Assembly (NCBI GenBank): GCA_045592165.1
Contig: JAZNUG010000094.1
Span: forward strand, 1 to 38,848
Direction of reading: 5' to 3'
DNA from: Clostridia bacterium
Lineage (GTDB): Bacteria > Bacillota > Clostridia > Christensenellales > CAG-138
DNA: 38,848 bases
Each line of letters opens with the position of its first letter. Within the stretch, counting starts at the first letter, position 1. The notes below the pieces were generated by a model. That model ran no database searches. It was not told where the DNA came from and was given only the letters and a program-made list of their open reading frames with translations. Positions 1,196-25,230 of the stretch are shown piece by piece. The position numbers were made by a program, and so were the translations under genes.

Positions 1196-4100
1196 CTATC
1201 CGAAGGTGATGGGAGGCACCTCGTTCTCGCCGCCTGCGCCGAATCCGCCGCCTGCGCTGCCATCAAATATACCGCCGAATGCATCGCTGGTTCTGGCCTT
1301 GATCTTGAAGGATACCGTCTTTGTTCCGCCGAACATGCCCAGTCCCTCAAAGGTAACCTTTGCAGAACCGATGGTTGTGTTCTTCACGTAACTGTTTTCA
1401 ACAACGCGGATATCCTTGCCCAGCTCAAGGGGAATTATTTCCTTGCCAACCTTCATATAAACCTTGCCTTCCACAAACTGGCGCTGATCCACTATGCGGA
1501 TAGGCTTTCCGGTATACTTGTGGTCCATTATCTGTATAGTGGCGCCCTTGATATCATAACCCTTATCCAGTATACGGTATGTACCGGATACAGTGCCCTC
1601 ATAATTGCCGGTGCCAGTTACGGTAATGCGTATCACAGAGCCTGCGGGAACAACAGAACTCTTATTCAGTACGCGGTTTGTGCTGAGCAGCGCACCGTTG
1701 GAATCAGGAATGGCAATAAGGGTGTATACGGCTTCCTTAAGGTATTCCTTGCCGGCAGCAAGCGCCTTGCCGTTTACATCGTATACCTTGAAGGACTGAT
1801 AATAGCCATTGGGCTTGCCGGTTGCCACCTTATCTGCCGCAACGACACTTATACCGCTGTTGTTGTCTATCGTCCTGGGATTGATGATAAAGTTTTCGGT
1901 AATGGTACCGGCAAAGTTGCCCTTGCCCTTTATTACTGCCTGAGGAGGCTTTGCAGCAGCAAAGCTTTCATCGGTATAGACAGCTTTATTGTTCTTGAAG
2001 CTGACGGTGTAATCCACACCCTCTGTCAGCAATTTTCCGTCATTTGCTGCCCAAGCTACACTCAGGGAAGGCACAGTGCCGCCGGCGGTGTATGTGCAGG
2101 AACCGATGTTAACATCAACTGTATCGCCTGAGAGTACAGCCGCATTGATCTTGAAGCTCTGCTTCTTGCTGCCGGTATAACCCTTTTCGGGATTGCCTGT
2201 AAATATTACAGTACCGGTACCCTTTGCAATGTTCTTCTGGTACTCAACTGTGTAATGTATGCCCTCTTCAAGGTCAATACCGGTGGAAGGATCCTTGGCA
2301 TCGGCAAAGTATGCAACAGTCATCCTTGCGCTTCCCTCAAGCTCGGTGGGGCGTATTTCAGCGCCTGTGTAGGCATAGCCTTCCTTAAGGACGTTGTTCA
2401 CTGTTACCTTACTCATGGCAATGCCATTTACCTTGAAGGTTTTTACAACGCTGCCAACGTAAACGATGCCGTCTCCGTCAGCATCTTCCCCTGTACCGGT
2501 GATGATTACGGAAGCTGTGCCGACCACGTCGTTGTTAACGTATTCTACGGTGTAGTCAATACCCTCGTACAGCAGATTCTTGCCGGTGGCCTCATCCTTT
2601 GCCTCGCTCTTATAGCTGAGGGTCAGCTCAGGAACAGCACCGTCTTCAGCCCAGTTTACAGCCTTGATAGAGGCAACGGATACCTTGGACATCAGCACCT
2701 GATCCGCCTTGTTTGCAACGATAAACTGCGCTTTCAGCGTACCGCTGAAATTACCCGCACCGGTAAATGTGACATCATATGAACCGGGAGCGATGCATGC
2801 GCCATGGGTCATGGTGTAGTCAGTCTTAAGCTTGATGGCCTTACCGGTCTGGTTCCAGGTAACCACAGGCTTGGGGGTAAGCGCCTTGCCGGTTTCCGCC
2901 TGAGCGGGAATGGATACTGTAAAGTCATTGCCGTTCAGCTGCACAGGCTTGATGCTGAAGCAGATGTTGATTTTGCCGGAATAGTTGCCCTTCAGGGTGA
3001 CCACGGCATGGGGAGACTTTTTAAGGTTGTTTTCATCGGCAGCAGCAGCGTTCTTATTGTTCTTGTAGGCCACGGTATAATCGGTCTTCTCGACAAGAAG
3101 CTTATTGCCGTCGTACAGGCGGAAAGCAGGGGTCTTTGCAGTTCCGTCATATACGGGGTTTACTATTTTTGTTGCCCAGATGCAATCGGGAATTATGCCG
3201 CCTATGGGCATATCCTCGGGCAGTACATCGCCAACGCCGGTATTCTTTACTTCCACAGTATAGCTAAATTCAGCAGCTTCGCTTATGCCGAATGTATCAA
3301 CCGCGGCAACAGCACGGATTACGGTATCGGTATTTATCTCAATGGGCTCGGCGTAGAGAATCGCCGTATCACCGACAGGCTCGCTGCCATCCACTGTATA
3401 GTAAATGCTTGCACCCTCGCTATCCGTCATCAGGGCCACCTTTGTGCCCTGGGCAACAACTGCGCCGCTCTCGATGCTGGCATAAGGAGCTGCAACGCTG
3501 GAACGCTGCCAGCATGCATACAGCAGAATATCCTCATAGATTCGGGTTTCGGAAGTGAACCTATCGCCCGTGCCCTCAGCGCCGGTAAACCAACCCAGGA
3601 ATTCATAGCCTTCTCTTTCCATAACGGGAAGCTGAACAGCGCTGCCTATATCTATGTACTCTATGCTGTCAATTTCTCCTGCGCCTACGGTATCGAAGGA
3701 TACGGAGACGTACTTGTTCTCCTCCGTTTCCTCGCGCACTTCGCAATAGGCCAATTCTTCGCCAACCCACTTGAATTCTGAATCAAGCCATACAACGCGC
3801 AGCTCTATGCGGGCATACTCATCGTCAGTGCATATCACGCTCTCATTGAAGGGAATATCAAAGCCCAGGAAAGCGGCATCATCTGCATCAACCACAAGGT
3901 TTTTCTCTGCGGGTTCTTGGAATACTACAGTTTCTCCCTTTTTGCCGGTCATATAAACCTGGCATGCATAGACATCCTGTGCGAAAGGATACCAACGGAT
4001 ATCTTCTAACCAATAATAGCCATCGGTCTTTGACATCTTATCAAGGTCGACCTTCATATCAAGGTAGACGGTATTGTCTTCATTGCTGGATACCTTACTG

Positions 4101-5407
4101 GTCTGGACAACGCCGGAGAGAACCCCACCGTTTTCATAATCGTAATATGTATCCACAAGGTCGAAGCGACCGGTATCCGTTACATTTACGGCAGGCTGCT
4201 CCACCTTGGATATGATGCAGTAGCTTTCCTCAACGCCTATGATATTTTCACGGCTGTCCTTCCAATAGAAAGACATATTTACCTTTGTGTCGGTATCATA
4301 CTCGGGCAGGTCATTCACATCCAAAGGTAAGAATATTTCGAGATACCATGTATCCCCTTCAACTTCAACCGTAGGATACTGAATTCCTCTGGCTGTATAC
4401 TCTCCCTTGGTTACTTCATAAGCCAGCTGCCCATCAACCGTCTCGGTATCGGGCATGGCAATACGAATGCCCTCCATCCACAGACCGTCCTGGTACTCTG
4501 TCAGCCAGTCTGTGTACACCTGAACATCCATATATGCGTTGCCTTCATCATCAACGGCAACAGCATATTCCTTGATGCCCTCATTTTCTACATTCTGCAG
4601 AGAAATGCGGTCGGGGTCAGTGATTTTTACAGCTTCAAAATCAGTCCATGTTACGATGCAGTAAGTCTTTTCTTCAAGAATGATTTCGCCGTTGCTGTCT
4701 TTCCAATAGAAAGTCAGATCAACTCTGGTGCTGGAGCCTGCTTCAGGCAGGGCTTTGCTGTAGAATAAAACATCTGCAGCTACACTTCCATCGCTTTCAA
4801 CAGGAAGATCCTCATGCTTCGTCCAGAATCTATTTTCGCTGTCTTCATCGCCTTCCTTTTCCACATCACAGGTAACAGCGCCGATGTCCGGAGCGGTAAC
4901 TTTAACATTATTTATCCAGCAAGTTCCCTCTTCTCCGTACATCATATCCACGTCAAGCTGCGCGTCTATGTATGCATTTCCTTCAGCATCGGTGCGGACA
5001 GCATACCCCACAACAGCGCAATCTGTTATGTATTCAAGGGAAATTCGATTTGTATCAGCAATATAACCTGCCGCTGCATCCGTGACGGGAAGCGTTTGCA
5101 CAGGCACCTCTGCAGGTTCTTCGGATTCCCCCTGTTCCTCCACAGGCTGCTGCGGCAGTTCCTCTTCAGCAGGAATCTCCTCTTCTGTTTGCTCTGTAAC
5201 TTCCTCCTGAGCAGGAACTTCTTCGGACAGAACATCCGGCTCGTCTTCGGAAGGAATATCCTCCACGGGTTCATCTATAATTACTTCTTCAACAGGGTCG
5301 ATATCGGTATCGGCCGCCTGTGCAAAGGCAACACCAACAGGCTGCAGGCAAAGCACAGCCAGCAGCAGCATAGATATTATTCTTTTGATAATGCTGTAAG
5401 ATTTCAC
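1196..5407 (-). CDS. Large secreted multi-repeat surface protein (about 1403 aa)
   Basis: Long ORF. The likely start is the GTG at 5407, with AGGAGG (5414..5419) 6 nt upstream. The signal peptide is KSYSIIKRIISMLLLAVLCLQPVGVAFA. An acidic E/P/Q linker follows, then three unrecognised modules. Next come a Listeria-Bacteroides-type repeat (GYEFLGWF...LYACW) and a GASIYYTVDGSEP motif. About eight repeats of the form DYTV.Y.NN...GTA...GKGN(Y/F).G follow, and the protein ends in a Gly-rich tail. Confidence 0.85.
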   Translation of the reverse strand: MKSYSIIKRIISMLLLAVLCLQPVGVAFAQAADTDIDPVEEVIIDEPVEDIPSEDEPDVLSEEVPAQEEVTEQTEEEIPAEEELPQQPVEEQGESEEPAEVPVQTLPVTDAAAGYIADTNRISLEYITDCAVVGYAVRTDAEGNAYIDAQLDVDMMYGEEGTCWINNVKVTAPDIGAVTCDVEKEGDEDSENRFWTKHEDLPVESDGSVAADVLFYSKALPEAGSSTRVDLTFYWKDSNGEIILEEKTYCIVTWTDFEAVKITDPDRISLQNVENEGIKEYAVAVDDEGNAYMDVQVYTDWLTEYQDGLWMEGIRIAMPDTETVDGQLAYEVTKGEYTARGIQYPTVEVEGDTWYLEIFLPLDVNDLPEYDTDTKVNMSFYWKDSRENIIGVEESYCIISKVEQPAVNVTDTGRFDLVDTYYDYENGGVLSGVVQTSKVSSNEDNTVYLDMKVDLDKMSKTDGYYWLEDIRWYPFAQDVYACQVYMTGKKGETVVFQEPAEKNLVVDADDAAFLGFDIPFNESVICTDDEYARIELRVVWLDSEFKWVGEELAYCEVREETEENKYVSVSFDTVGAGEIDSIEYIDIGSAVQLPVMEREGYEFLGWFTGAEGTGDRFTSETRIYEDILLYACWQRSSVAAPYASIESGAVVAQGTKVALMTDSEGASIYYTVDGSEPVGDTAILYAEPIEINTDTVIRAVAAVDTFGISEAAEFSYTVEVKNTGVGDVLPEDMPIGGIIPDCIWATKIVNPVYDGTAKTPAFRLYDGNKLLVEKTDYTVAYKNNKNAAAADENNLKKSPHAVVTLKGNYSGKINICFSIKPVQLNGNDFTVSIPAQAETGKALTPKPVVTWNQTGKAIKLKTDYTMTHGACIAPGSYDVTFTGAGNFSGTLKAQFIVANKADQVLMSKVSVASIKAVNWAEDGAVPELTLSYKSEAKDEATGKNLLYEGIDYTVEYVNNDVVGTASVIITGTGEDADGDGIVYVGSVVKTFKVNGIAMSKVTVNNVLKEGYAYTGAEIRPTELEGSARMTVAYFADAKDPSTGIDLEEGIHYTVEYQKNIAKGTGTVIFTGNPEKGYTGSKKQSFKINAAVLSGDTVDVNIGSCTYTAGGTVPSLSVAWAANDGKLLTEGVDYTVSFKNNKAVYTDESFAAAKPPQAVIKGKGNFAGTITENFIINPRTIDNNSGISVVAADKVATGKPNGYYQSFKVYDVNGKALAAGKEYLKEAVYTLIAIPDSNGALLSTNRVLNKSSVVPAGSVIRITVTGTGNYEGTVSGTYRILDKGYDIKGATIQIMDHKYTGKPIRIVDQRQFVEGKVYMKVGKEIIPLELGKDIRVVENSYVKNTTIGSAKVTFEGLGMFGGTKTVSFKIKARTSDAFGGIFDGSAGGGFGAGGENEVPPITFG

Positions 5408-5522
5408 GGTATACCTCCTATGAATTCTCATATGTAAATATATCATATCACATTTGTTATTTTCTTTCCACATCATACAATGTATTTCCGGACGAATATT
5501 GATTTTTTTACTGACGGCATAT

Positions 5523-5556
5523 AAAAAGTGCGAAGAAAACAGCTCTTCGCACTTTT
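5523..5556 (-). terminator. Intrinsic terminator after the sortase-anchored protein gene
   Basis: The stem GTGCGAAGA / TCTTCGCAC (5528..5552) is followed in minus sense by TTTTT. Confidence 0.7.
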
Positions 5557-5584
5557 ATCGGAATCTATTTGGTTACGAAAGCAT

Positions 5585-7288
5585 TTATTCCTCGTCCTTG
5601 CGACGCTTGAGCAGGCAGAGAGCTGCAATGCCCATAGCTGCGGCAGGGCTCATAAGGCCTATATCGCCGGTCTTGGGGAAGGACAGGCTGCCATATACCA
5701 CGTTAAGGGTAAAGGTAGGAGTATTTACAGTCTTGCATCCGTTGCTGATTACGCAGCGATACTTATATCCGTCCATCTTAGAGGATACGTCTTTTACGGT
5801 GTAATTGGCACAGGTGGCGCCCTTTATCTTGACAAAGCCGCAGCCGTCACCCTTATCCACATACCACTGGCAGCTGTCGCCGCAGGAAAGAGCAACCTTG
5901 AAGATCACATCCTCGCCGGGACGAACGCTTACGCACTTGCCGGAATGATGATTCATGCCGCAACAGGGCTTGGAATGGGTACTGGAAGTCCTGGTTACCT
6001 TTACGGCAACATCATCCTCGGAAGAGGCCAGCTCTTCTGTGCCGCTGTATACCGCCTTTACGGTATTGTCGCCAACCTTGAACTTGTTTTTGTCAGATGC
6101 GGAAATTTTCCAGGAAATCAGGGGCTTTACATCGACTGCTTTGCCGTAGGCCTCACCGTTTATATAGAGCTGAACGGTTCCCTCGGTAACAGAATTGCCC
6201 TCAGCATCCTTTACGGTTACCTGATAGGTTACGGAAGAGCCGCGAGTAACCTTGCTGCGGGAAGCCTTTATCTTGGTAGTGGTTTCTGCCTTGGCAGGCT
6301 CGGTCTGAGTTTCCTGCTCAAATGCAGCCACGAGATTGCGGTTGGTTGCAGCTTCAAATGTAAGAGCAGCTTCAGTGCTTACCACTGCGCCGTTTTCCTT
6401 CCATGCTACAAACTTGTAGCCCTCGTTTGCCGCTGCAATAAGGGTTACGGAATCGCCATTGTTATAGGTACCGCCGCCGGCAACAAGACCGCCTTCGGAG
6501 GGAGTTGCCACTGCAGTGATGGTGCAGGTTTCCTGCTCCTCCGCCTCAAACTTTGCAACGAGGGTGCGGTTGGTCCTGGCTTCAAAGGTAAAGGAAGCAT
6601 CAGCGCTTACTTCTGCGCCATTTTCCCTCCATGCTACAAACTTGTAGCCCTCATTTGCCGCTGCGGTAACGGTAACAGAAGCACCCTTGCTATATGTGCC
6701 GCCGCCGGTAACAACGCCGCCTTCAGAGGGAGTTGCCGCAACGTCAATAACACACTCTTCCTGCTCGGCGGCTTCAAACTTTGCAAAGAGATTGCGGTCG
6801 CCATCCACAGTGAAGGTGTAGGTGGTTTCGGTGGTCAGAACCGCGCCGTTTTCCTTCCATGCAACAAAGACATAGCCTTCGTTTGCCACCGCGGTAACGG
6901 TTGCCTGTGCATCCTTTTCATAGGTGCCTGCACCGGATACAGAACCGCCCGCCTGAGGAGTAGCCCCTGCAGCAACGGTGAAGGTTACGGGGTCCTGGAT
7001 ATTGTTCTGAAGCTGTTCCCCGCTCTGAGACTGTTTTCCCTCATCGGACTTGTTTTCATCAGACAGCTGCTCACCTTCGGACTGATTTTCCTCGCCGGTC
7101 AGCTGCTCGCCTTCGGACTGGTTTTCCCCGCCGGTCAGCTGGTCACCATCAGGCTGATTTTCGCCGCCGGGCAGATTGTCTCCCATGCCCTGCTCAGAGT
7201 AGTTTTCACCTTCCTGAGCAAAAGCTACGGACGGAAGCAGACTTGTAAGCATAAGCGCACAAATCAGCACAGCAATAAAACGTTTCAT
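5585..7288 (-). CDS. Cell-wall-anchored surface protein with InlB B-repeat-like units, Ig-like domains and an LPXTG-type (FPKTG) sorting signal
   Basis: The ATG at 7288 has GGAGGG 7 nt upstream, and the signal peptide is MKRFIAVLICALMLTSLLPSVAFA. There are three units of the form ANEGY.FVAW.ENGA...F. The C-terminus reads FPKTGD, then a hydrophobic stretch, then KRRKDEE. Confidence 0.85.
   Translation of the reverse strand: MKRFIAVLICALMLTSLLPSVAFAQEGENYSEQGMGDNLPGGENQPDGDQLTGGENQSEGEQLTGEENQSEGEQLSDENKSDEGKQSQSGEQLQNNIQDPVTFTVAAGATPQAGGSVSGAGTYEKDAQATVTAVANEGYVFVAWKENGAVLTTETTYTFTVDGDRNLFAKFEAAEQEECVIDVAATPSEGGVVTGGGTYSKGASVTVTAAANEGYKFVAWRENGAEVSADASFTFEARTNRTLVAKFEAEEQETCTITAVATPSEGGLVAGGGTYNNGDSVTLIAAANEGYKFVAWKENGAVVSTEAALTFEAATNRNLVAAFEQETQTEPAKAETTTKIKASRSKVTRGSSVTYQVTVKDAEGNSVTEGTVQLYINGEAYGKAVDVKPLISWKISASDKNKFKVGDNTVKAVYSGTEELASSEDDVAVKVTRTSSTHSKPCCGMNHHSGKCVSVRPGEDVIFKVALSCGDSCQWYVDKGDGCGFVKIKGATCANYTVKDVSSKMDGYKYRCVISNGCKTVNTPTFTLNVVYGSLSFPKTGDIGLMSPAAAMGIAALCLLKRRKDEE
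6305..6988 (-). repeat. Three in-frame tandem copies of a 228-bp (76-aa) unit inside the surface-protein gene
   Basis: The landmark CCATGC(T/A)ACAAA recurs at 6401, 6629 and 6857, an exact period of 228 bp. The protein units are ATPSEGG..GGGTY...ANEGYKFVAW.ENGA....F.A..NR.LVA.FE. The outer boundaries are approximate. Confidence 0.75.
7067..7174 (-). repeat. Three in-frame tandem copies of a 36-bp (12-aa) unit
   Basis: The units at 7067..7102, 7103..7138 and 7139..7174 encode LPGGENQPDGDQ / LTGGENQSEGEQ / LTGEENQSEGEQ. Confidence 0.85.
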
Positions 7289-7562
7289 TTTGATACCCTC
7301 CAATCATCCTTTGGCTGAAAATCTCACACAAATATTACTCAGCTGTCAGCCATATACACAGCGCATAAGCGTTCATAAGAATGTATGGTACATTTTAGTG
7401 GTTTATCCCGAAAATTTCAAGCAAATTCGGCATTATTTACAAATCCATAAAAAATCGGACATAATTTCATGCTTCAAAGTGCGTTTTTATGCAGATTATC
7501 CGCTTGATCTACGGATTGCCGCCCATAATTCAGCAGCCCGCCATGCTCCGCGCTTATGTTTT

Positions 7563-8966
7563 TCAGGATGTGACACTCTCCGCGTACCACGCATCAAACT
7601 CAGGGGGTATGGCGGTAAAGCGCAGTTTCCAGCCCTTCTCCTCCCTGGATATTACCTTACAGAACAGCTTTGCGCCTATTTCCAGGTGCAGATTGTCATA
7701 TTCCTCTATTGCCACGGCAGTTTCCAGTACGGCCTCCCTGGGGGACAGCGCGGTGATCATGCCCCTGTTTGCTTCAAGGTCGCTGTGCTTGCCCTTGATA
7801 ATATAGAATTCGACCTTTCGGGGAGAATTGAGCGGCCTCAGTTCCTCATTATTCCGCGCCTGACAGGACAGGCCGTATTTACCGCCTATACCCATGACAT
7901 TTGTAAGCACAAGGGGCGCCTTGATACCCTTGGGGAATACCACCAGTTCCTTATCCACGGCAAGGGGTTCACCGATAAGCTCCCTTGTCTGGGGAGATAT
8001 CAATATCTGTCCGCCAACGGTATAGCTTTCGATTCGTCCGCAGAGGTTTGCATTCTTACCAACCACGCCGTACTTCGTGCGCTTTTCCGAGCCGATATTG
8101 CCTATAATCACATCGCCGGTATTTATGCCGATGCCCATTTCCAGTTTTGGGTATCCCCGCTGCAGATTCCATTGGTTTACGGCTTCCATTCTCGCCTGCA
8201 TTTCCACCGCCGCAGCCACCGCCTCAGATGCATGGTTTTCCGAAGGCAGAGGTGCGCCGAATATGGCCACGATGCTGTCTCCCATGAATTCTATTATTGT
8301 GCCGTTTCTCTGCTGTATTATTCCCGTCATATCACCGAAATAATGATTGAGCATGGCCAGCAGGTCATGGGGCTCCATCCTTTCGCTCAGCGCAGTAAAG
8401 CCCCGCAGATCGCTCATAAGTATAGTAATAAACCGCTTCTTTCCGCCCATTTCAAGGCCGTTTGGCGTTTCCAGAAGCTGACGGACTATCTCATCCGAAA
8501 GAAACCGGCCAAAGGTATCGCTGAGCAGGTTATTCCGCATTTCCAGCTTTTTATTCAGGCCGTGGATGTACTCTATGGCCTCTGCAGTATTGCCAAGCTC
8601 CACAATTCCGCTGACATCGCTCAGCGCAGCGATGACTCCCGCCTTTTCCCCATTATCATCCTTGAGATAAGATGTAGACACATACAGCTGCTTGAACTTT
8701 TCTCCGGTAAAATACGGGATTATTCCCCTGTAAGATGGAGCTGTACCAAACACTGCATCCAGCATGGTTTGATTAAATGACGCATTGCCCTCAAAACAGA
8801 ATGAACAGCGGGCGAAGCTTTGCCCTATGAGCTCCTGCTCCCCCCTTCCCAGTATGCGGGCCGCCGCAGGATTGGCATAGGTAATGGCACCATCAAAGTC
8901 GATGATGATTATGCCCTGGGCCATATCCCGCATTATGCTTTCATGGGTCAGTTTTGTGGTGCTCAT
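7563..8966 (-). CDS. PAS-domain class III nucleotidyl cyclase with an extra C-terminal beta-rich domain
   Basis: The ATG at 8966 overlaps the upstream stop as ATGA. The PAS-like N-terminus reads IIIDFDGAITYANPAAARILG. The cyclase homology domain contains ILMSDLRGFT, FMGDSIVAIFGAP, IGINTGDVIIGNIGS and GKNANLCGRIES. A tail of about 120 aa remains unassigned and may be a degenerate PilZ-like domain. Confidence 0.85.
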   Translation of the reverse strand: MSTTKLTHESIMRDMAQGIIIIDFDGAITYANPAAARILGRGEQELIGQSFARCSFCFEGNASFNQTMLDAVFGTAPSYRGIIPYFTGEKFKQLYVSTSYLKDDNGEKAGVIAALSDVSGIVELGNTAEAIEYIHGLNKKLEMRNNLLSDTFGRFLSDEIVRQLLETPNGLEMGGKKRFITILMSDLRGFTALSERMEPHDLLAMLNHYFGDMTGIIQQRNGTIIEFMGDSIVAIFGAPLPSENHASEAVAAAVEMQARMEAVNQWNLQRGYPKLEMGIGINTGDVIIGNIGSEKRTKYGVVGKNANLCGRIESYTVGGQILISPQTRELIGEPLAVDKELVVFPKGIKAPLVLTNVMGIGGKYGLSCQARNNEELRPLNSPRKVEFYIIKGKHSDLEANRGMITALSPREAVLETAVAIEEYDNLHLEIGAKLFCKVISREEKGWKLRFTAIPPEFDAWYAESVTS

Positions 8967-9748
8967 TCCCTTTCCTTTCCGCCGCAAAACCAGCCGTGCT
9001 GTCTGAGATAAGTCAATGATCTTTTCACGCCTTCTATTCCGCCCACCTCAAGGGTAACAGGAATGTTTCCGCTAAGGCTGCGCCGCATTCTGTCAGCCTT
9101 TTCCCAATCCACAGTTCCTTCGCCAATGGCCATATGATTATCGTATTTTCCATAGTTGTCCGACAGATGCAGGTATCCTATATAATCACCCAGCCTGTCA
9201 AACCAAGCCTCCATGGGAGCATTGGAGTAATTCACATGGCCGATATCCAGACACACCTTTACCCTGTCGCCGGACACCCGTTTCATTATGGCTTCCAACG
9301 GATCGGGATCTATATCCATGCTGTTTTCAACGCATATTGTTAAGCCATGCTTCTCCGCAAGCTCCATGAAATATTGGGCGGTGGTATCCGCCCAGCCGTC
9401 AATATACGCTCCCCTCAGGAAAGGCGCGCAGCTGGAATGAAACACCACCCATTCCGCGCCTATCTCTCGGGCAAAAAGACAGCTCTGCTCGCAGCACATT
9501 CTGGAATGCGCCCTCACGGCAGACGATGCGCTGGCAGGATTCACATCTATAAATGCACCGTGGATGGCTCTGGTGCGCCCAAGACTTTTATGCCAGGCCT
9601 TAAGTTCATTGCATAGGGACTCATTTGCCATGGCGGGAGCCATGAACATTTCTATGGGCTCATAATAAAGATTTTCCCGCAGAGCAAATTCGCGGCATAT
9701 ATCCCGCTCGTCATATCTTGGCTGTATCTGAAAAAAGAACTCTGACAT
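8963..9748 (-). CDS. Xylose-isomerase-like TIM-barrel protein (sugar phosphate isomerase/epimerase family)
   Basis: 261 aa. The motif series VVFHSS, ICVEN, CLDIGH, LHLSDN and VTLEV is typical of the AP-endonuclease-2 / xylose-isomerase-like fold. The gene starts 6 nt after the upstream stop. Confidence 0.8.
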   Translation of the reverse strand: MSEFFFQIQPRYDERDICREFALRENLYYEPIEMFMAPAMANESLCNELKAWHKSLGRTRAIHGAFIDVNPASASSAVRAHSRMCCEQSCLFAREIGAEWVVFHSSCAPFLRGAYIDGWADTTAQYFMELAEKHGLTICVENSMDIDPDPLEAIMKRVSGDRVKVCLDIGHVNYSNAPMEAWFDRLGDYIGYLHLSDNYGKYDNHMAIGEGTVDWEKADRMRRSLSGNIPVTLEVGGIEGVKRSLTYLRQHGWFCGGKERE

Positions 9749-9754
9749 AATCGA

Positions 9755-10276
9755 TTACCTGTTTTTGTCAATGAAGTTATATATGTTTCCGCTGTCGCTG
9801 ACGCCGGCTATGGCCTCGGCATAGTCGCTGATGAATTTGCCTACCTTCTCAATAAACCAGCTGCTTCCGGATTTTTCCTCTTTTTCGGCTTCAACGATTT
9901 CGGTTACTGCCCGGCAGGCTTCCATATAGTCATGGGTCAGCTGACGTATACGTTTGCTCATGTTCTTCATCATATCCAGCAGCACATCAGGATCATCGCC
10001 GAAATAACTGCCGAAGTTTTCCCCGCTGATAAGGAATACCTCAACGTCCTCCAGCGCCACCGCCGCAGCAGAGCGGCGCATGGAATCGATCAGTCCCATT
10101 TCGCCGAAGGTTGCGCCATGTCCTCCGCTTATCTCTGTAAGCAGCTTTTCATCCGGGCCGCCGAAGTTTGCGTATATTCCCACTCTGCCCCTGTTGAGAA
10201 CATACATCCACATTTCAAAGCTGCCCTCTTCAAATATAACATCACCTTTTTTATAATAACGGATCATATCTTCCAT
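9755..10276 (-). CDS. Stand-alone cyclic-nucleotide-binding (CNB) domain protein with no HTH
   Basis: 173 aa. The phosphate-binding cassette reads FGEMGLIDSMRRSAAAVA. The C-terminal helical extension contains RIRQLTHDYMEACRAV and SSWFIEKVGKFISDY. An AAGGAG RBS overlaps the end of the upstream gene. Confidence 0.85.
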   Translation of the reverse strand: MEDMIRYYKKGDVIFEEGSFEMWMYVLNRGRVGIYANFGGPDEKLLTEISGGHGATFGEMGLIDSMRRSAAAVALEDVEVFLISGENFGSYFGDDPDVLLDMMKNMSKRIRQLTHDYMEACRAVTEIVEAEKEEKSGSSWFIEKVGKFISDYAEAIAGVSDSGNIYNFIDKNR

Positions 10277-10284
10277 GCCTGATA

Positions 10285-10782
10285 TTACTCCTTATCTGCA
10301 CAGTCTGCCGTCGTTTTCCTATAATCCTCCACAAACTTTCCTGCTCTGTCCCGGAACCAGCCGCTCTTTTCCCCGCCGCTCTCCTGAGATTCCACCGCTT
10401 CCTTTACCGCGCGGCAGGCATCCATATAATCTCCGGTAAGGGTGCGTATACGCTTACCCATGCTCTGCATGACGGCGATAACCTTTTCCGGCCGTTCCCT
10501 AAGATAACGGCTGAAGGTATTCCTGTTGATTACCTCCACCCTTGTTTCCCTTTCCAGCGCAACGGCAGTGGCGCTGCGGGGCGCTTCATCCACAAGGCCC
10601 ATCTCCCCGAAGATGTCATCTCCCCTGAGCCGGGCAAGCATCTTCTCTGCGGATGTGCCGTAATTAAGGTATATACCAACGCTTCCCCAGCGGATATCAT
10701 ACATACAGTCCGCAGGGTCTCCCTGTCTGAATATTATTTCACCTTTTTTATAGGATTTATATTCTCTTGCGTATTCCGACAT
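10285..10782 (-). CDS. Stand-alone CNB domain protein, paralog of 9755..10276
   Basis: The cassette reads FGEMGLVDEAPRSATAVA. The same C-terminal pattern appears as RIRTLTGDYMDACRAV and SGWFRDRAGKFVEDY. I chose the ATG at 10782 (MSEY...); the GTG at 10788 is an alternative. Confidence 0.85.
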   Translation of the reverse strand: MSEYAREYKSYKKGEIIFRQGDPADCMYDIRWGSVGIYLNYGTSAEKMLARLRGDDIFGEMGLVDEAPRSATAVALERETRVEVINRNTFSRYLRERPEKVIAVMQSMGKRIRTLTGDYMDACRAVKEAVESQESGGEKSGWFRDRAGKFVEDYRKTTADCADKE

Positions 10783-10933
10783 AAGCACAGGCTTGCCTTT
10801 CGTAAGATTGTATTCATTATACAGGTATATGCAGCAGCAGATATGTTTTCATTATCAGTATATCTGAAAATACTGAACACAGCAATCCTAATCGGCCGAT
10901 AATGCTGTTTAAAGCAAAAGAAGCTGGCAGAAC

Positions 10934-10970
10934 ACAGAAACATCCCCCGTTACTGCCGGAACGGGGGATG
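10934..10970 (-). terminator. Intrinsic terminator after the GH13 gene
   Basis: The stem CATCCCCCGT / ACGGGGGATG (10941..10970) is followed in minus sense by TTTCTGTGTT. Confidence 0.75.
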
Positions 10971-10981
10971 TTGTTTTGCGC

Positions 10982-12274: not shown

Positions 12275-12377
12275 AGTAGGATATCTCCTGTGAAAACGTT
12301 ATTTTCAGATATATTTAAGATAACATACCGGACCGAAAAATTAAAGAATGCAGGCAGATGCTGTATGTTCGCAATCA

Positions 12378-13352
12378 TTAATTCTCTGCAAAGTAATTCT
12401 CCCGGGCATAGTTAAAATTATCCAGCAGAAACTTCAGCGCCTCCCTGCTGACTTTTGCACGGGGGGCCATCAAATCAAAGGCATGAAAACAACCTTCGTA
12501 TTCTCTGAAGCGTACCTCCACTCCCTGCTCCTTCAGTCGGTTTACAAAGGTTACGGTTTCATCATAGAAGGGCTCAATTGTACCGATATATGTGAAGACG
12601 GGAGGCAATCCCCTCAGATCCTGCGCCCTTGCAGGGGCAGCGTATATTGGCAGATTGTCCCTGTCCAATCCCTCAAGATACTTATCCCACCCAACTATAT
12701 TGGACGGCGTATCCCACACGGGAGCATTGTTGTCCCTGGAAGACTCTGTAATGCGGTCATCTATCATAGGATACAGGGGCATCTGGAAAGCTACGTTCAC
12801 CTCTCCCTTGTCTCTTGCATACAGGCACAGAGCAGCGGTAAGGCCGCCACCCGCACTCTCTCCGCCCACGAACAGCTGGTTTTTGTTTATACCGAGTTCC
12901 TCGGCATGCTGCAGCATCCATGTCAGTGCAAGGTAACAATCCTCAATGGCGGCAGGGTAAGGGGCTGTTGTGCTGAGGGTGTAGGCAGGCATAACTGCCA
13001 CAGTTCCCCCGTCCTTTATCATCGGATCCACAAAAAAGCTGCCCTCCTCCGGCTCACCAAGGGCATATCCTCCCCCGTGAATCCACAGCAGGCCCGCGGC
13101 ATCCGGCTTTGTACCCGCCCTGGAGCGGCAAACCAGCATACGCAGCTCAGTTCCGTCCGGTCTCTGTATGTATTTCATCTCAGCCGTCGTATTTTTGCCC
13201 TTCCATCTGCCGGGAAGCCGTTTTTCTTCTTTGGTTTTCCGCCATACAATACTCAATGTATCGAACTTGGGCATGGTAAGCTTGAGAAATATGCCGCTGA
13301 GGCGCAGATCTTTATGAATATCCTTATTGCGAATAACTGCCATATTTGCCAT
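12378..13352 (-). CDS. Alpha/beta hydrolase, esterase/lipase (hormone-sensitive-lipase-like family)
   Basis: An HGGGY oxyanion motif (LWIHGGGYALG) and a GESAGG nucleophile elbow are present. The start may instead be the ATG at 13343, which has better spacing to AAGGGA. Confidence 0.85.
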   Translation of the reverse strand: MANMAVIRNKDIHKDLRLSGIFLKLTMPKFDTLSIVWRKTKEEKRLPGRWKGKNTTAEMKYIQRPDGTELRMLVCRSRAGTKPDAAGLLWIHGGGYALGEPEEGSFFVDPMIKDGGTVAVMPAYTLSTTAPYPAAIEDCYLALTWMLQHAEELGINKNQLFVGGESAGGGLTAALCLYARDKGEVNVAFQMPLYPMIDDRITESSRDNNAPVWDTPSNIVGWDKYLEGLDRDNLPIYAAPARAQDLRGLPPVFTYIGTIEPFYDETVTFVNRLKEQGVEVRFREYEGCFHAFDLMAPRAKVSREALKFLLDNFNYARENYFAEN

Positions 13353-13682
13353 TCCCTTTCGGTTGTTTTATTTCCGGTTAATTATACCATGTTTTTCCAT
13401 AATAAAAGAATACGCCAATGTCGCTGTATAGGCAATCCCCGGCGTCTTGCATCCGGACCGGTATTCATTTACATAGCCCTCCTGTTTATCCCCCTAATTA
13501 AATAATCTGAGCTATCTCATTGACAGACGCAAATCAAAAATGCTACCATGCCACAAGAAATATAATTTTTACAGATAAATGCATATTGTTCCAACGGAAA
13601 CGCACTCTGCTGCACCGACAATATACATTTTCCCCTGTCCGCACACCCCACAACAGCCTTTTCATGCTGCGAGGTAATAATA

Positions 13683-24534: not shown

Positions 24535-25230
24535 TCAGCGGTTAAAAGGACATTCCTTTCCAAGGCATTCATTATTGAATCCGGAAAATCCGCAGTGAAT
24601 ATGTTCGGGCAGTTCCATCTGTATGCCAAAGTTCTCCTTTATGAACTCCACCGCCGCAATTACTGCAAGAAAGCTGTCCCTCTTGCAGCATCGTGGGCCG
24701 CCGCAGTTTGCTATACGCTCCAGTGCCCTGGATGTCATAAGGTTGGCAAGTCCCCATTCCTGCTTTTTCAGCGGGGTAGCCCCCGTGATGATACTTACGA
24801 ATATCCCCGTACTGACTCCGGCGCCGCAGCATCCCCAAAAACCACAGGTGCCTCCGGGAACCTGCTTGCCCCGGCGCAGCATTTCTTCAAGGGCGGGACG
24901 AATGTTTATTTCGCCGCCGCTGTTGCGGTATGCCGCCAGCAGCGCAGCCCCCACCATAAAGTGGTGCTCCGGTCCGTGCATATGAACAGCGGGCTGCTCC
25001 ATCAGGCTCTGTATTATGCCTATAGGATCCCGTGAAGATGTGCCGGCGCACACCTCAAATACTATCCCCTCCGCGTCCTTTGAATGACAGCTGTCACATA
25101 TAAAGTGTCCCGCCCTGCATGCAGCGTTTGCCTGAAACTCACCGCCGCACAGCAGACATTTCATAGACTTAGGCTGAAGAAAGTATTCCAGTTCTTCGCC
25201 GCAGATAAGGCAGTTGTTTTTATTTTCCAT
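24535..25230 (-). CDS. Cysteine-rich conserved hypothetical protein (N-terminal zinc-ribbon-like CxxC pairs, about 17 Cys)
   Basis: 231 aa containing CLICGEE...CLLCGG...CRAGHFICDSCH, HMHGPEHH, CGFWGCCGAG, CGGPRCCKR and ECLGKECPF. Its ATG lies 2 nt after the stop of the TrmH-family gene. Confidence 0.7.
   Translation of the reverse strand: MENKNNCLICGEELEYFLQPKSMKCLLCGGEFQANAACRAGHFICDSCHSKDAEGIVFEVCAGTSSRDPIGIIQSLMEQPAVHMHGPEHHFMVGAALLAAYRNSGGEINIRPALEEMLRRGKQVPGGTCGFWGCCGAGVSTGIFVSIITGATPLKKQEWGLANLMTSRALERIANCGGPRCCKRDSFLAVIAAVEFIKENFGIQMELPEHIHCGFSGFNNECLGKECPFNR

What the first reader, a model, noticed from the sequence alone, without database searches (positions are those of the whole stretch)
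7563..10788. Compact four-gene cyclic-nucleotide operon: two effector-less CNB proteins, a TIM-barrel enzyme and a PAS-cyclase
The gene order in minus sense is CNB1, CNB2, xylose-isomerase-like TIM barrel, then PAS-class III cyclase. The spacings are 8 nt, 6 nt and a 4-nt ATGA overlap. An intrinsic terminator lies upstream of the block (after GH13). I saw no clear intrinsic terminator between the cyclase stop and the next gene downstream. Both CNB proteins carry the full phosphate-binding cassette (FGEMGL....RSA) but lack any HTH, TM, kinase or other output domain. Instead they share a conserved C-terminal extension of about 45 aa (RIR.LT.DYM.ACRAV...S.WF..K.GKF..DY), which ends in an amphipathic-looking helix. 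Stand-alone CNB proteins paired with a cyclase and a putative sugar-phosphate isomerase are not a textbook arrangement. The output of this module is unknown. It could act through protein-protein regulation of the TIM-barrel enzyme, or through membrane association via the amphipathic tail.
Basis: partly seen in the sequence, partly recalled or inferred. Interest (0 to 1): 0.7.

Follow-up and report, generated by a model that had tools for sequence, protein, structure and literature searches.

The report
Conserved cyclic-nucleotide signalling cassette, gut Clostridia
Four tightly packed genes form a widely conserved but unstudied cyclic-nucleotide (probably cGMP) signalling kit of gut and rumen Clostridia: a sensor-cyclase, two receptor proteins with no output domain, and an endonuclease-IV-like enzyme that may be a new kind of cyclic-nucleotide phosphodiesterase.

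Summary
Four minus-strand genes (CNB1, CNB2, TIM barrel, PAS-cyclase) are spaced 8, 6 and -4 nt, just downstream of the GH13 terminator. The block recurs in many uncultured Clostridia.

Three corrections apply.
- The cyclase's catalytic domain is 54% identical to Synechocystis guanylyl cyclase Cya2 and has its Glu/Gly substrate pair. The messenger is therefore probably cGMP.
- The TIM barrel is not isomerase-like. It keeps all nine ligands of endonuclease IV's trinuclear metal site. Its clade is almost always adjacent to this cyclase type and is often fused to cyclase domains. It never co-occurs with the MBL-fold class-II phosphodiesterase found in sister cassettes.
- Most of the CNB "C-terminal extension" is the CRP-type C-helix, followed by one extra helix.

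CNB1 and CNB2 are ancient paralogues with a fixed gene order. They are fused into one chain in some genomes, and both keep the nucleotide-binding cassette.

Best reading: a synthesis, degradation and receptor cassette. The TIM enzyme's substrate, the nucleotide's identity and the receptor's target are inferred, not shown.

The parts
10939..10972 (-). Intrinsic terminator of the upstream GH13 (alpha-amylase family) gene; marks the upstream boundary of the operon
   Evidence: 13-bp stem (7 G-C pairs), 8-nt loop and a T-rich tail. An equivalent hairpin follows the GH13 orthologue in L001.
10285..10788 (-). CNB1: CRP-type cyclic-nucleotide-binding protein without an output domain ('first-position' paralogue). 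The probable true start is ATG 10782 (165 aa).
   Evidence: Pfam cNMP_binding 3.6e-22. The AF2 model has mean pLDDT 88: beta-roll 9-88, aB 89-98, long aC 100-137, extra helix 143-166. The best Foldseek hits are CRP-family sensor domains. The start codon is set by comparison with L001 and other homologues.
9755..10276 (-). CNB2: paralogous CNB protein ('second-position' type), 45% identical to CNB1. Its AAGGAG ribosome-binding site lies at the end of CNB1.
   Evidence: Pfam cNMP_binding 4.3e-16; BLASTP against CNB1 4e-44. Position-specific orthology holds in 188 of 192 comparisons. The binding-cassette residues G, E, R, S/T and A are kept in at least 94% of both types.
8963..9748 (-). Endonuclease-IV-like TIM-barrel metallo-phosphoesterase (PF01261) of a cyclase-linked clade; candidate cyclic-nucleotide phosphodiesterase
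   Evidence: The metal ligands H63, H104, E141, D168, H171, H194, D203, H205 and E234 are invariant or nearly so in 28 homologues. E141 to E234 align with Endo IV E145, D179, H182, H216, D229, H231 and E261, and H104 with the Mtb Endo IV histidine. H63 is placed by motif. PDB neighbours are MJ1311, TTHB071 and Endo IV. The best NCBIfam match is CbiR, below its cut-off. Synteny and fusions with cyclases.
7563..8966 (-). PAS / signalling helix / Cya2-type class III nucleotidyl cyclase / C-terminal beta domain (467 aa). Its start overlaps the TIM stop codon (ATGA).
   Evidence: Pfam. phmmer against Cya2 2W01 gives 4.6e-61. Foldseek against 2W01 gives 54% identity and TM 0.92-0.94. AF2 model.
8616..8966 (-). 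PAS sensor domain (aa 1-117)
   Evidence: PAS, PAS_9, PAS_4 and PAS_8 hits; secondary structure of the model.
8469..8612 (-). Long signalling helix with the cyclase transducer element motif TFGRFLSDEIV (aa 119-166)
   Evidence: One helix 119-166 in the model, with low pLDDT as a monomer. The motif is invariant in the alignment. The FGRY transducer element is described in PMC5995499.
7869..8441 (-). Cyclase catalytic domain (aa 176-366). Metal Asp D186 and D230; substrate pair E226/G300; transition-state N307 and R311.
   Evidence: All six residues are invariant in 30 homologues. 52 of 57 orthologues in the fetched loci show D-E-D-G-N-G-R. The Cya2 E-G pair is described in PMC4215837.
7569..7838 (-). 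Conserved beta-rich C-terminal domain plus terminal helix (aa 377-466); no family assignment
   Evidence: pLDDT 85-93, six strands and a helix. No Pfam match and no meaningful PDB sequence match (best E 0.048). Present in all PAS-cyclase orthologues and in the three TIM-cyclase fusions whose sequences were read (P0362, P0365, P0368).
7304..7562 (-). Intergenic region downstream of the cyclase. It has no strong intrinsic terminator and holds a promoter-like site for the next gene (7420-7392).
   Evidence: Terminator and promoter scan; RNA fold z-score -1.28.

Best explanation
The block is one operon encoding a self-contained cyclic-mononucleotide second-messenger cassette of uncultured gut and rumen Clostridia.

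1. Synthesis. A PAS-regulated homodimeric class III cyclase of the Cya2 type makes the messenger. The Glu/Gly substrate pair makes cGMP the most likely product.
2. Reception. CNB1 and CNB2 are CRP-like sensor domains that kept the dimerisation C-helix but lost the DNA-binding domain. They bind the messenger, most likely as a CNB1:CNB2 heterodimer, and pass the signal on by protein-protein contact. In this they resemble a PKA regulatory subunit more than a transcription factor.
3. Degradation or control. The TIM-barrel protein is an endonuclease-IV-type trinuclear-metal phosphoesterase that is functionally, and probably physically, coupled to the cyclase. Its most likely job is to hydrolyse the ribose-3'-O-P bond of the cyclic nucleotide, making it the cassette's phosphodiesterase.

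Shown: gene layout, domain identities, active-site conservation, conserved synteny, gene fusions, and exclusivity with MBL phosphodiesterase genes.

Inferred: co-transcription, cGMP as the product, the heterodimer, the TIM substrate, and the receptor's downstream target (unknown).
For: Layout. Gaps of 8, 6 and -4 nt leave no room for internal promoters or terminators.

Synteny.
- Of 80 genome loci seeded with the CNB family, 74 hold at least two CNB genes. 49 hold a class III cyclase, and in 30 of those it is the PAS/Cya2-like type.
- The full CNB-CNB-TIM-PAS-cyclase order recurs in L001, L002, L005, L009 and L048, and in at least 11 metagenome loci.
- 21 of 25 metagenome loci with a TIM orthologue of at least 42% identity have the PAS-cyclase adjacent. 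None of 55 loci with distant TIM relatives (36% or less) has one.

Cyclase. Cya2 is the closest solved structure (4.6e-61; 54% identity; TM 0.92-0.94). The E226/G300 pair and the metal and transition-state residues are invariant. Cya2 is a guanylyl cyclase with an E-G pair, and its E488K mutant makes cAMP instead (PMC4215837, PMC5995499).

CNB pair.
- In 95 unique tandem pairs, the nearest relative from another locus occupies the same position (first or second) in 188 of 192 cases.
- Natural fusions join a first-type half to a second-type half.
- Binding-cassette residues are kept in at least 94% of both types.
- The fold is closest to CRP sensor domains with a long C-helix.

TIM.
- The nine Endo IV ligands are conserved. 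The nearest characterised families cleave phosphodiesters: Endo IV, and CbiR (PMC7733943).
- Six of the 14 closest 50%-identity clusters are TIM-cyclase fusions. The three fusions whose sequences were read keep all nine ligands.
- Sister cassettes carry an MBL-fold protein with the SHLHIDH motif whose closest solved relative is YhfI, an atypical class-II cAMP/cGMP phosphodiesterase.
- TIM and MBL never co-occur: 0 of 7 and 0 of 33 TIM loci have MBL, against 31 of 73 other loci.
Against: Nothing biochemical has been tested.

- In the fusions, the TIM domain takes the N-terminal place of the PAS sensor. In P0365 and P0368 it is joined to the cyclase through the signalling helix. More distant members sit N-terminal to GAF-GGDEF or GAF-HD-GYP. 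That combinatorial pattern is typical of input domains and fits a sensor or regulatory role at least as well as a phosphodiesterase role.
- 17 of 49 cyclase-containing loci have neither TIM nor MBL, so a cassette-encoded phosphodiesterase is not obligatory.
- The exclusivity statistic is not corrected for phylogeny, and many contigs are short.
- Cya2 has a Tyr that boosts its guanylyl cyclase activity; this family has Gly there (NLCGR). The CNB cassette reads RSA, as in cAMP-binding CRP. Nucleotide identity is therefore open.
- 31 of 80 CNB loci have no cyclase within 7 kb, and genomes carry several pairs. The receptors need not act on their neighbours.
- No multimer model could be run to test the heterodimer.
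Confidence: 0.55

Rival explanations
1. The TIM-barrel protein is not the phosphodiesterase. It is an enzymatic sensor or regulatory subunit of the cyclase. Its metal centre binds or turns over some other phosphoester metabolite, or responds to metal, redox state or O2, and its state is relayed to the cyclase. The relay runs in cis in the fusions and within a complex in this operon. Under this reading the cassette has two inputs (PAS and TIM) and no dedicated degrading enzyme.
For: - In the TIM-cyclase fusions the TIM domain replaces PAS. In P0365 and P0368 it is followed by the signalling helix and transducer motif that carry sensor signals.
- The same domain sits N-terminal to GAF-GGDEF, GAF-HD-GYP and GAF alone, which is the shuffling pattern of input modules.
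- The ATGA overlap with the cyclase suggests 1:1 co-production.
- The nearest characterised enzyme, CbiR, is oxygen-sensitive (PMC7733943), and the clade has invariant cysteines C86, C90 and C166.
- 17 of 49 cassettes work without any encoded phosphodiesterase.
Against: - A pure sensor gives no reason for the mutual exclusivity with the MBL class-II phosphodiesterase gene.
- The full catalytic Endo IV ligand set is invariant across the clade and is kept in the fusions that were read.
- P0362 joins TIM to the cyclase without a signalling helix.
- The two roles are not mutually exclusive.
Confidence: 0.3
2. One reading: the TIM barrel is a sugar-phosphate isomerase or epimerase that serves as the metabolic output of the module. 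The CNB proteins switch it on or off, or act at the membrane through an amphipathic C-terminal helix.
For: - Pfam names PF01261 'xylose isomerase-like TIM barrel', and databases label homologues 'sugar phosphate isomerase/epimerase'.
- A GH13 gene lies upstream.
- The last CNB helix carries W/F...KF...Y residues.
Against: - Isomerase and epimerase models match only weakly (E 2e-6 to 0.05, far below their cut-offs). CbiR and Endo IV models score higher, and Endo IV-type structures are the closest.
- The nine-ligand trinuclear pattern is that of Endo IV. From my own knowledge, the isomerases and epimerases use fewer ligands.
- GH13 is separated from the block by a strong terminator.
- Fusion to cyclase, GGDEF and HD-GYP domains points to nucleotide signalling rather than sugar metabolism.
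- The last CNB helix has a low hydrophobic moment and is often absent.
Confidence: 0.05
3. The CNB pair has no signalling partner. It acts as a high-capacity buffer or sponge that shapes the free cyclic-nucleotide concentration, or as a feedback subunit of the cyclase only.
For: - No output domain is present.
- The pair is usually encoded right next to a cyclase.
- In L169 a single 130-aa CNB gene overlaps the TIM-cyclase gene by 4 nt.
Against: - Two distinct paralogues have been maintained in a fixed order over long divergence.
- The C-helix motif RxRxLTxDYxxAC is conserved in both types.
- 31 of 80 pairs lie far from any cyclase, and genomes hold several pairs. Both facts suggest specific partners elsewhere.
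- Pairs also accompany short cyclases that lack the C-terminal domain.
Confidence: 0.12
4. The block is a Pycsar-like antiphage system. A cyclase makes a cyclic nucleotide on infection, and the CNB proteins are the effectors.
For: - PADLOC models of PycC and PycTIR match the cyclase and CNB domains (E 1.8e-19 and 5.9e-10).
- A distant TIM-GAF-GGDEF relative sits next to a TIR protein and a large cyclase in L171.
Against: - The PADLOC matches cover only the shared domains. The cyclase is far closer to Cya2.
- The CNB proteins lack the TIR or transmembrane killing module.
- The cyclase has a PAS input and a transducer helix typical of housekeeping signalling.
- The flanking genes are ordinary chromosomal genes.
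- Genomes carry several paralogous cassettes.
Confidence: 0.03

Closest known systems
Synechocystis sp. PCC 6803 guanylyl cyclase Cya2 (PDB 2W01)
   Same: The catalytic domain is 54% identical with TM 0.92-0.94. It has the same Glu/Gly substrate pair, the same metal Asp pair and Asn/Arg, and the same transducer-element motif upstream. Both proteins also carry an uncharacterised C-terminal extension.
   Different: Cya2 has a CHASE2/transmembrane input; this protein has a cytoplasmic PAS domain. Cya2's Tyr next to the catalytic Arg is Gly here. Whether the two C-terminal extensions are homologous was not tested. No CNB or TIM partner genes were examined for Cya2.
CRP/FNR-family cAMP receptor proteins (E. 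coli CAP, M. tuberculosis CRP, C. glutamicum GlxR)
   Same: Beta-roll with the G-E...R-S-A phosphate-binding cassette, followed by a long C-helix. These are the best Foldseek hits and the best NCBIfam hit.
   Different: There is no winged-helix DNA-binding domain; one short helix replaces it. Two distinct paralogues (or one fused tandem protein) take the place of a homodimer.
PKA/PKG regulatory modules (tandem CNB-A/CNB-B)
   Same: Two non-identical CNB domains work together without a catalytic or DNA-binding domain of their own. Fused relatives carry both domains in one chain. These are the top sequence hits in the PDB by summed score. The operon as a whole recalls an AKAP-type cyclase, phosphodiesterase and R-subunit assembly.
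   Different: There is no docking domain or inhibitor sequence and no known kinase partner. The fold details are CRP-like: a long C-helix and no N-terminal helical bundle.
Endonuclease IV (Nfo), CbiR and MJ1311-type members of the AP_endonuc_2 TIM-barrel superfamily
   Same: PF01261 fold. All nine Endo IV metal ligands are present. Endo IV and CbiR both hydrolyse a phosphodiester at a sugar 3'-O, which is the bond a 3',5'-cNMP phosphodiesterase must cut (the bond chemistry is from my own knowledge).
   Different: Scores are far below the Nfo and CbiR family cut-offs (31 against 244 bits; 54 against 105 bits). There is no cobamide or DNA-repair gene context. The clade is uniquely linked or fused to class III cyclases.
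Atypical class-II (MBL-fold) cAMP/cGMP phosphodiesterases: B. subtilis YhfI, M. tuberculosis Rv1339, C. glutamicum CpdA
   Same: Genes of this type occupy the position next to the cyclase in sister cassettes with the same CNB pair. There they are translationally coupled to the cyclase, as the TIM gene is here.
   Different: The fold and metal site are unrelated. The window has no MBL gene in the block.

Membership tests
Class III nucleotidyl cyclase, Cya2-type guanylyl cyclase | Guanylate_cyc catalytic fold with two metal-binding Asp and the Asn/Arg transition-state pair | tested here: met
   PF00211 3.6e-27. D186, D230, N307 and R311 are invariant. Foldseek against 2W01 gives TM 0.92-0.94.
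Class III nucleotidyl cyclase, Cya2-type guanylyl cyclase | Glu (not Lys) and Gly (not Asp) at the two substrate-specifying positions | tested here: met
   E226 and G300 align with Cya2 DEFMGD and KYGVVG. 52 of 57 orthologues share the pair. The E-G pair is described in PMC4215837.
Class III nucleotidyl cyclase, Cya2-type guanylyl cyclase | Preferential conversion of GTP to cGMP | not testable with these tools
   This needs an enzyme assay. The Tyr that enhances Cya2's guanylyl cyclase activity is Gly here.
CRP/FNR transcription factors | N-terminal CNB beta-roll plus a dimerisation C-helix | tested here: met
CRP/FNR transcription factors | C-terminal winged helix-turn-helix DNA-binding domain | tested here: not met
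   The proteins end after one extra helix at 165-173 aa. No HTH_Crp hit appears in Pfam. The NCBIfam CRP match covers only profile positions 25-133 of 214 and scores 45 against a cut-off of 266 bits.
PKA/PKG-type regulatory subunit | Two tandem CNB domains in one polypeptide | tested here: not met
   The window has two separate genes. Relatives do have fused 290-326 aa proteins.
PKA/PKG-type regulatory subunit | Inhibitor or pseudosubstrate segment and a kinase partner | not tested
   No N-terminal extension precedes the beta-roll. No kinase gene recurs in the neighbourhoods.
Endonuclease IV (Nfo) | Nine-residue ligand set of the trinuclear metal cluster (H69, H109, E145, D179, H182, H216, D229, H231, E261) | tested here: met
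   The counterparts are H63, H104, E141, D168, H171, H194, D203, H205 and E234. H63 is placed by motif only.
Endonuclease IV (Nfo) | Family-level sequence membership (NCBIfam nfo models above their cut-off) | tested here: not met
   31.1 bits against a cut-off of 244; 23.9 against 129.65.
CbiR cobamide-remodelling phosphodiesterase | NF041277 above its cut-off, and a cobamide biosynthesis gene neighbourhood | tested here: not met
   54.2 bits against a cut-off of 105. The neighbours are CNB and cyclase genes.
Sugar(-phosphate) isomerases and epimerases of PF01261 | Membership of a characterised isomerase or epimerase family | tested here: not met
   The best such match is fructoselysine 3-epimerase, 27.6 bits against a cut-off of 305. 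Epimerase structures match only at E 0.04 or worse with the profile.
Known cyclic-nucleotide phosphodiesterase classes (I HD-type, II MBL-type, III calcineurin-like) | One of the three known catalytic folds | tested here: not met
   Only PF01261 was found in the TIM protein. If it is a phosphodiesterase, it is of a new fold class. No such enzyme was found in the paper library.
Pycsar antiphage system | Effector made of a CNB domain fused to a transmembrane or TIR killing module | tested here: not met
   PADLOC matches cover only the CNB part (residues 9-115) of the PycTIR models. No TIR or transmembrane segment is present.
Pycsar antiphage system | Pyrimidine-specific PycC cyclase in a defence-island context | tested here: inconclusive
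   The PycC match is at domain level, 1.8e-19, against 4.6e-61 for Cya2. The flanking genes are ordinary. Product specificity is untested.

The most novel reading that the evidence does not exclude
The cyclase-linked clade of endonuclease-IV-like TIM barrels is a fourth structural class of 3',5'-cyclic-nucleotide phosphodiesterase. It is physically coupled to, and in many organisms fused with, a Cya2-type guanylyl cyclase. Together with a heterodimeric CNB receptor that lacks a DNA-binding domain, it defines a cGMP signalling pathway in strictly anaerobic gut and rumen Firmicutes. Those bacteria are a group for which cGMP signalling has not, to my knowledge, been described.
Probability: 0.35. 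Interest if true: 0.8.

Novelty: new variant of a known kind. Interest (0 to 1): 0.62.

Why it matters
Bacterial cAMP/cGMP signalling is understood mainly through CRP-type transcription factors. Bacterial guanylyl cyclases are considered scarce: a 2004 review cited in PMC4215837 is titled for a 'dearth of guanylylcyclases'.

This cassette is abundant in gut and rumen Clostridia. The protein searches returned hundreds of clusters for the CNB and TIM families and thousands for the cyclase. It offers three testable things.

- A probable cGMP pathway in anaerobic Firmicutes.
- Receptors that must act by protein-protein contact, because they have no output domain.
- A candidate new phosphodiesterase fold. 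Alternatively, the TIM domain is a new enzyme-derived input domain that is also wired to GGDEF and HD-GYP outputs.

Either outcome for the TIM domain would add a new part to the second-messenger toolkit and would correct the widespread 'sugar phosphate isomerase/epimerase' annotation. The small soluble parts (165-467 aa) make direct biochemical tests easy.

Tried and rejected
- PADLOC scan. It gave only domain-level Pycsar matches, so the defence reading was rejected.
- Assignment of the cyclase's C-terminal ~95 aa. Pfam at E up to 10 on 20 members and a PDB profile search gave nothing meaningful. Foldseek on the full-length model was dominated by cyclase hits. My initial guess of a PilZ-like barrel therefore remains untested.
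- Literature searches for stand-alone bacterial CNB proteins and for a TIM-barrel cNMP phosphodiesterase. Nothing directly relevant turned up. MJ1311 is mentioned in only one paper in the library.
- Recurrent neighbours of cyclase-less CNB pairs that might be targets. Only SpoIIE-HATPase and STAS genes recur (9 and 5 loci), which is too few to commit to.
- Promoter scan upstream of CNB1. No sigma-70-type match was found on the minus strand. By eye there is a TATAAT at 10816-10821 with a poor -35.
- Hydrophobic-moment analysis of the tail. It does not support a membrane-targeting helix.
- Crude ORF calling. It produced spurious antisense ORF clusters (clusters 2, 6 and 8), which were ignored.

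Full report
**1. The observation**

Four ORFs lie head to tail on the minus strand:

| Gene | Coordinates | Length |
|---|---|---|
| CNB1 | 10285-10788 | 167 aa from GTG |
| CNB2 | 9755-10276 | 173 aa |
| TIM barrel | 8963-9748 | 261 aa |
| Cyclase | 7563-8966 | 467 aa |

Pfam finds only cNMP_binding in the two small proteins, AP_endonuc_2 in the third, and PAS plus Guanylate_cyc in the fourth. CNB1 and CNB2 are 45% identical along their whole length.

A strong hairpin terminator (10972-10939) follows the upstream GH13 gene. Nothing convincing follows the cyclase stop codon. The next gene has its own promoter-like site.

One detail needs changing. The 85%-identical orthologue in L001 and more distant homologues start at the position of ATG 10782, so CNB1 is probably 165 aa. 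The flanking genes are ordinary chromosomal genes: surface proteins, GH13, an esterase, oxidoreductases and an MFS transporter.

**2. Is the block conserved?**

Yes, with a clear hierarchy. A scan of one genome per species with the CNB family returned 80 loci. They come almost entirely from uncultured rumen and gut Clostridia (Oscillospiraceae, Lachnospiraceae, Butyrivibrio), with some Coriobacteriia and a Sphaerochaeta. Counts:

| Feature in the 80 CNB-seeded loci | Loci |
|---|---|
| At least two CNB genes in tandem | 74 |
| Class III cyclase within the locus | 49 |
| PAS / Cya2-like cyclase with the C-terminal domain | 30 of those 49 |
| MBL-fold gene | 31 |
| TIM gene | 7 |
| Both MBL and TIM | 0 |

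The conserved core is therefore the CNB pair plus a cyclase, and the TIM gene is an accessory part.

Seen from the TIM side, the link is very tight. All three TIM homologues looked up on long contigs sit between a CNB gene and the PAS-cyclase. Of 25 metagenome loci with a TIM orthologue of at least 42% identity, 21 have the PAS-cyclase adjacent. Most of the rest are cut by a contig end. None of the 55 loci holding TIM relatives of 36% identity or less has a CNB or cyclase neighbour.

The complete CNB-CNB-TIM-PAS-cyclase order recurs in at least 16 distinct loci.

**3. The cyclase**

The AF2 model shows four parts:
- a PAS domain (aa 1-117);
- one long helix (119-166) carrying the invariant transducer-element motif TFGRFLSDEIV;
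- the catalytic domain (176-366);
- a confident beta-rich domain with a terminal helix (377-466).

The last part has no Pfam match and no meaningful PDB sequence match.

The closest solved protein is the Synechocystis guanylyl cyclase Cya2 (2W01). phmmer gives 4.6e-61, and Foldseek gives 54% identity, TM 0.92-0.94 and rmsd about 2 Å.

The substrate-specifying positions are Glu226 (in IIEFMGD) and Gly300 (in KYGVVG). Both are invariant in 30 homologues and present in 52 of 57 orthologues in the fetched loci. This is the E-G pair of Cya2 (PMC4215837). In Cya2 the single change E488K converts the enzyme to an adenylyl cyclase (PMC5995499). The metal-binding Asp residues and the Asn/Arg pair are intact.

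The product is therefore more likely cGMP than cAMP. One caveat is that Cya2's activity-enhancing Tyr is Gly here. This step is inference.

**4. The CNB proteins**

The AF2 model of CNB1 (mean pLDDT 88) has these elements:
- a beta-roll (aa 9-88);
- helix aB (89-98);
- a 38-residue helix aC (100-137);
- one further helix (143-166).

The best structural matches are the sensor domains of CRP-family regulators: MtbCRP, GlxR and CAP. The best NCBIfam match is CRP, restricted to its sensor half.

In CRP that helix forms the dimer interface and touches the base of cAMP (my own knowledge). The motif is conserved in both paralogues. Only the last helix is extra. It is absent from a third to a half of family members and is only weakly amphipathic. 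I therefore read it as part of a helical dimerisation or partner-binding surface, not as a membrane anchor.

The two genes are not a recent duplication. Among 95 unique tandem pairs, the nearest relative from another locus occupies the same position (first or second) in 188 of 192 cases. Several lineages encode one fused protein of 290-326 aa whose N-terminal half is first-type and whose C-terminal half is second-type. Both types keep G61, E62, R71, S/T72 and A73 in at least 94% of sequences.

This is classic Rosetta-stone and co-inheritance evidence that CNB1 and CNB2 work together, most simply as a heterodimer, and that both bind nucleotide. They work like a CRP dimer without its DNA-binding domains, or like a PKA R subunit. 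They fail the membership tests for both families.

The target is unknown. Pairs occur with PAS-cyclases, with short cyclases lacking the C-terminal domain, and alone (31 of 80 loci), and genomes often hold several pairs. The only other recurrent neighbours are SpoIIE-HATPase and STAS partner-switching genes, in 9 and 5 loci.

**5. The TIM barrel**

It is not isomerase-like.

In 28 homologues, eight residues are invariant or nearly so: H63, H104, E141, D168, H171, H194, H205 and E234. The ninth, D203, is invariant.

HMM alignments place seven of the nine on E. coli Endo IV residues, and H104 on the corresponding His of M. tuberculosis Endo IV:

| TIM residue | E. coli Endo IV residue |
|---|---|
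| E141 | E145 |
| D168 | D179 |
| H171 | H182 |
| H194 | H216 |
| D203 | D229 |
| H205 | H231 |
| E234 | E261 |

H63 fits the H69 motif by position only. Together these are the nine ligands of Endo IV's trinuclear cluster (my own knowledge of the ligand assignment; PMC7733943 cites the 1999 Endo IV structure paper, whose title refers to three-metal-ion catalysis).

The closest solved proteins are MJ1311 (1e-24), TTHB071 and Endo IV. Epimerases appear only at E of about 0.04. The best NCBIfam model is CbiR, a phosphodiesterase that cuts the phosphoribosyl bond of cobamides, but the score is below its cut-off (PMC7733943). Endo IV and CbiR both cleave a phosphodiester at a sugar 3'-oxygen. A phosphodiesterase that makes 5'-NMP from a 3',5'-cNMP must cut the same bond.

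**6. Two further lines tie this clade to cyclic nucleotides**

*Sister cassettes carry a known phosphodiesterase type.* In those cassettes a 266-aa MBL-fold protein lies next to the cyclase. It is usually translationally coupled to a short cyclase, or sits just downstream of the PAS-cyclase. It belongs to PF12706 and has the motif SHLHIDH. Its closest structure is YhfI (6KNS).

YhfI, Rv1339 and CpdA are 'atypical class-II' cAMP/cGMP phosphodiesterases defined by [T/S]HxHxDH (PMC9293780, PMC9117128).

TIM and MBL genes never share a locus:

| Locus set | Loci with an MBL gene |
|---|---|
| TIM-bearing loci, CNB-seeded set | 0 of 7 |
| TIM-seeded loci | 0 of 33 |
| Remaining CNB-seeded loci | 31 of 73 |

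This suggests non-orthologous displacement, though the statistic is not corrected for phylogeny or for contig length.

*The TIM domain is fused to signalling domains.* An exhaustive profile search found 220 clusters at E of 1e-30 or better. Six of the 14 closest clusters are single proteins in which the TIM domain is fused to a class III cyclase. The three fusions whose sequences were read (P0362, P0365, P0368) carry the same C-terminal domain as the window's cyclase and keep all nine ligands. In L169 a CNB gene overlaps such a fusion gene by 4 nt. More distant members are TIM-GAF-GGDEF, TIM-GAF-HD-GYP and TIM-GAF.

**7. Interpretation and its limits**

The fusions cut both ways. They prove a functional, and probably physical, coupling of the TIM domain to the cyclase.

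However, the TIM domain takes the N-terminal place of the PAS sensor. In P0365 and P0368 it connects to the cyclase through the signalling helix. It is also combined with several different output domains. All of this is how input domains behave.

My estimates for the TIM protein are:
- it hydrolyses the cassette's cyclic nucleotide: about 0.45;
- it is an enzymatic sensor or regulatory subunit acting on another ligand: about 0.3;
- something else: the remainder.

The first two roles could coexist.

The Pycsar reading is rejected. PADLOC matches are at domain level only, no killing module is present, the cyclase has a PAS input, and the context is housekeeping. The sugar-isomerase-effector reading is rejected on the active-site and family evidence.

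**8. Novelty and verdict**

Each domain family is known, and cyclase, receptor and phosphodiesterase operons are a known logic. What is unusual is the particular set:
- a Cya2-type, probably guanylyl, cyclase in anaerobic Firmicutes;
- an obligate pair of CNB receptors without an output domain;
- an Endo IV-fold enzyme dedicated to a cyclase.

I found no paper describing any of this, although the library is incomplete.

I class the finding as a new variant of a known kind. One component would be categorically new if the phosphodiesterase activity, or the input-domain role, is demonstrated. Interest is 0.62.

Noticed in passing
L171:1147-6408: A distant TIM relative is fused to GAF-GGDEF (P0487). 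It lies directly upstream of a 310-aa TIR-domain protein and an 825-aa class III cyclase. This arrangement looks defence-like (Pycsar/Thoeris flavour), unlike the window's cassette.
   Followed up: no
L004:2793-5232; L071:32-2107 and 7 other loci: Genes for a membrane SpoIIE (PP2C) phosphatase fused to an anti-sigma-type HATPase, and for a STAS antagonist, recur next to CNB pairs and cyclases (9 and 5 of 80 loci). This hints at cross-talk between cNMP signalling and partner-switching.
   Followed up: partly
L042:8874-9623 and 16 other loci (short cyclases next to MBL genes): The ~250-aa cyclases of the MBL-type cassettes have non-canonical substrate pairs (Glu, Ser, Asp or Gly at the Lys position, plus Asp). 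Their product is unpredictable and may differ from that of the window's cyclase.
   Followed up: partly
window 8963-9748 (TIM residues C86, C90, C166): Three cysteines are invariant in the cyclase-linked TIM clade (RCxxSC motif and VCLDIGH). The nearest characterised enzyme, CbiR, is oxygen-sensitive and needs DTT. A redox-sensitive or additional metal site is possible.
   Followed up: no
L092:750-1526: One of the few TIM orthologues (51% identity) not linked to a cyclase has lost two metal ligands (D203 to N, E234 to A). This may be decay after loss of the partner.
   Followed up: no
L024:6397-9787; L037:7001-13310; L099; L016; L105; L108: Some loci carry three or four CNB genes, or two CNB pairs flanking one cyclase. 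Several MAGs contribute two or three separate loci. The CNB-pair family is strongly expanded in rumen Clostridia.
   Followed up: partly
window 7290-8780 (+), 5528-7318 (+), 12348-13505 (+): Long ORFs (385-596 aa) run antisense to real genes. They have no family support and low-complexity translations. They are artefacts of ORF listing in this moderately GC-rich sequence, and the same effect produced spurious clusters in my locus analysis.
   Followed up: yes
window 1196-5476 (-) and 5585-7303 (-): Immediately downstream of the operon lie two large putative cell-surface proteins with Listeria-Bacteroides/InlB B-repeat (Flg_new) domains. One is 1426 aa. The 572-aa protein ends in a hydrophobic stretch followed by basic residues (LCLLKRRKDEE), read by eye from the translation, which looks like a possible anchor.
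   Followed up: no
window 24535-25230 (-): A DUF5714 protein (E 5.5e-74) sits next to a SpoU-type RNA methyltransferase. It is unrelated to the finding.
   Followed up: no
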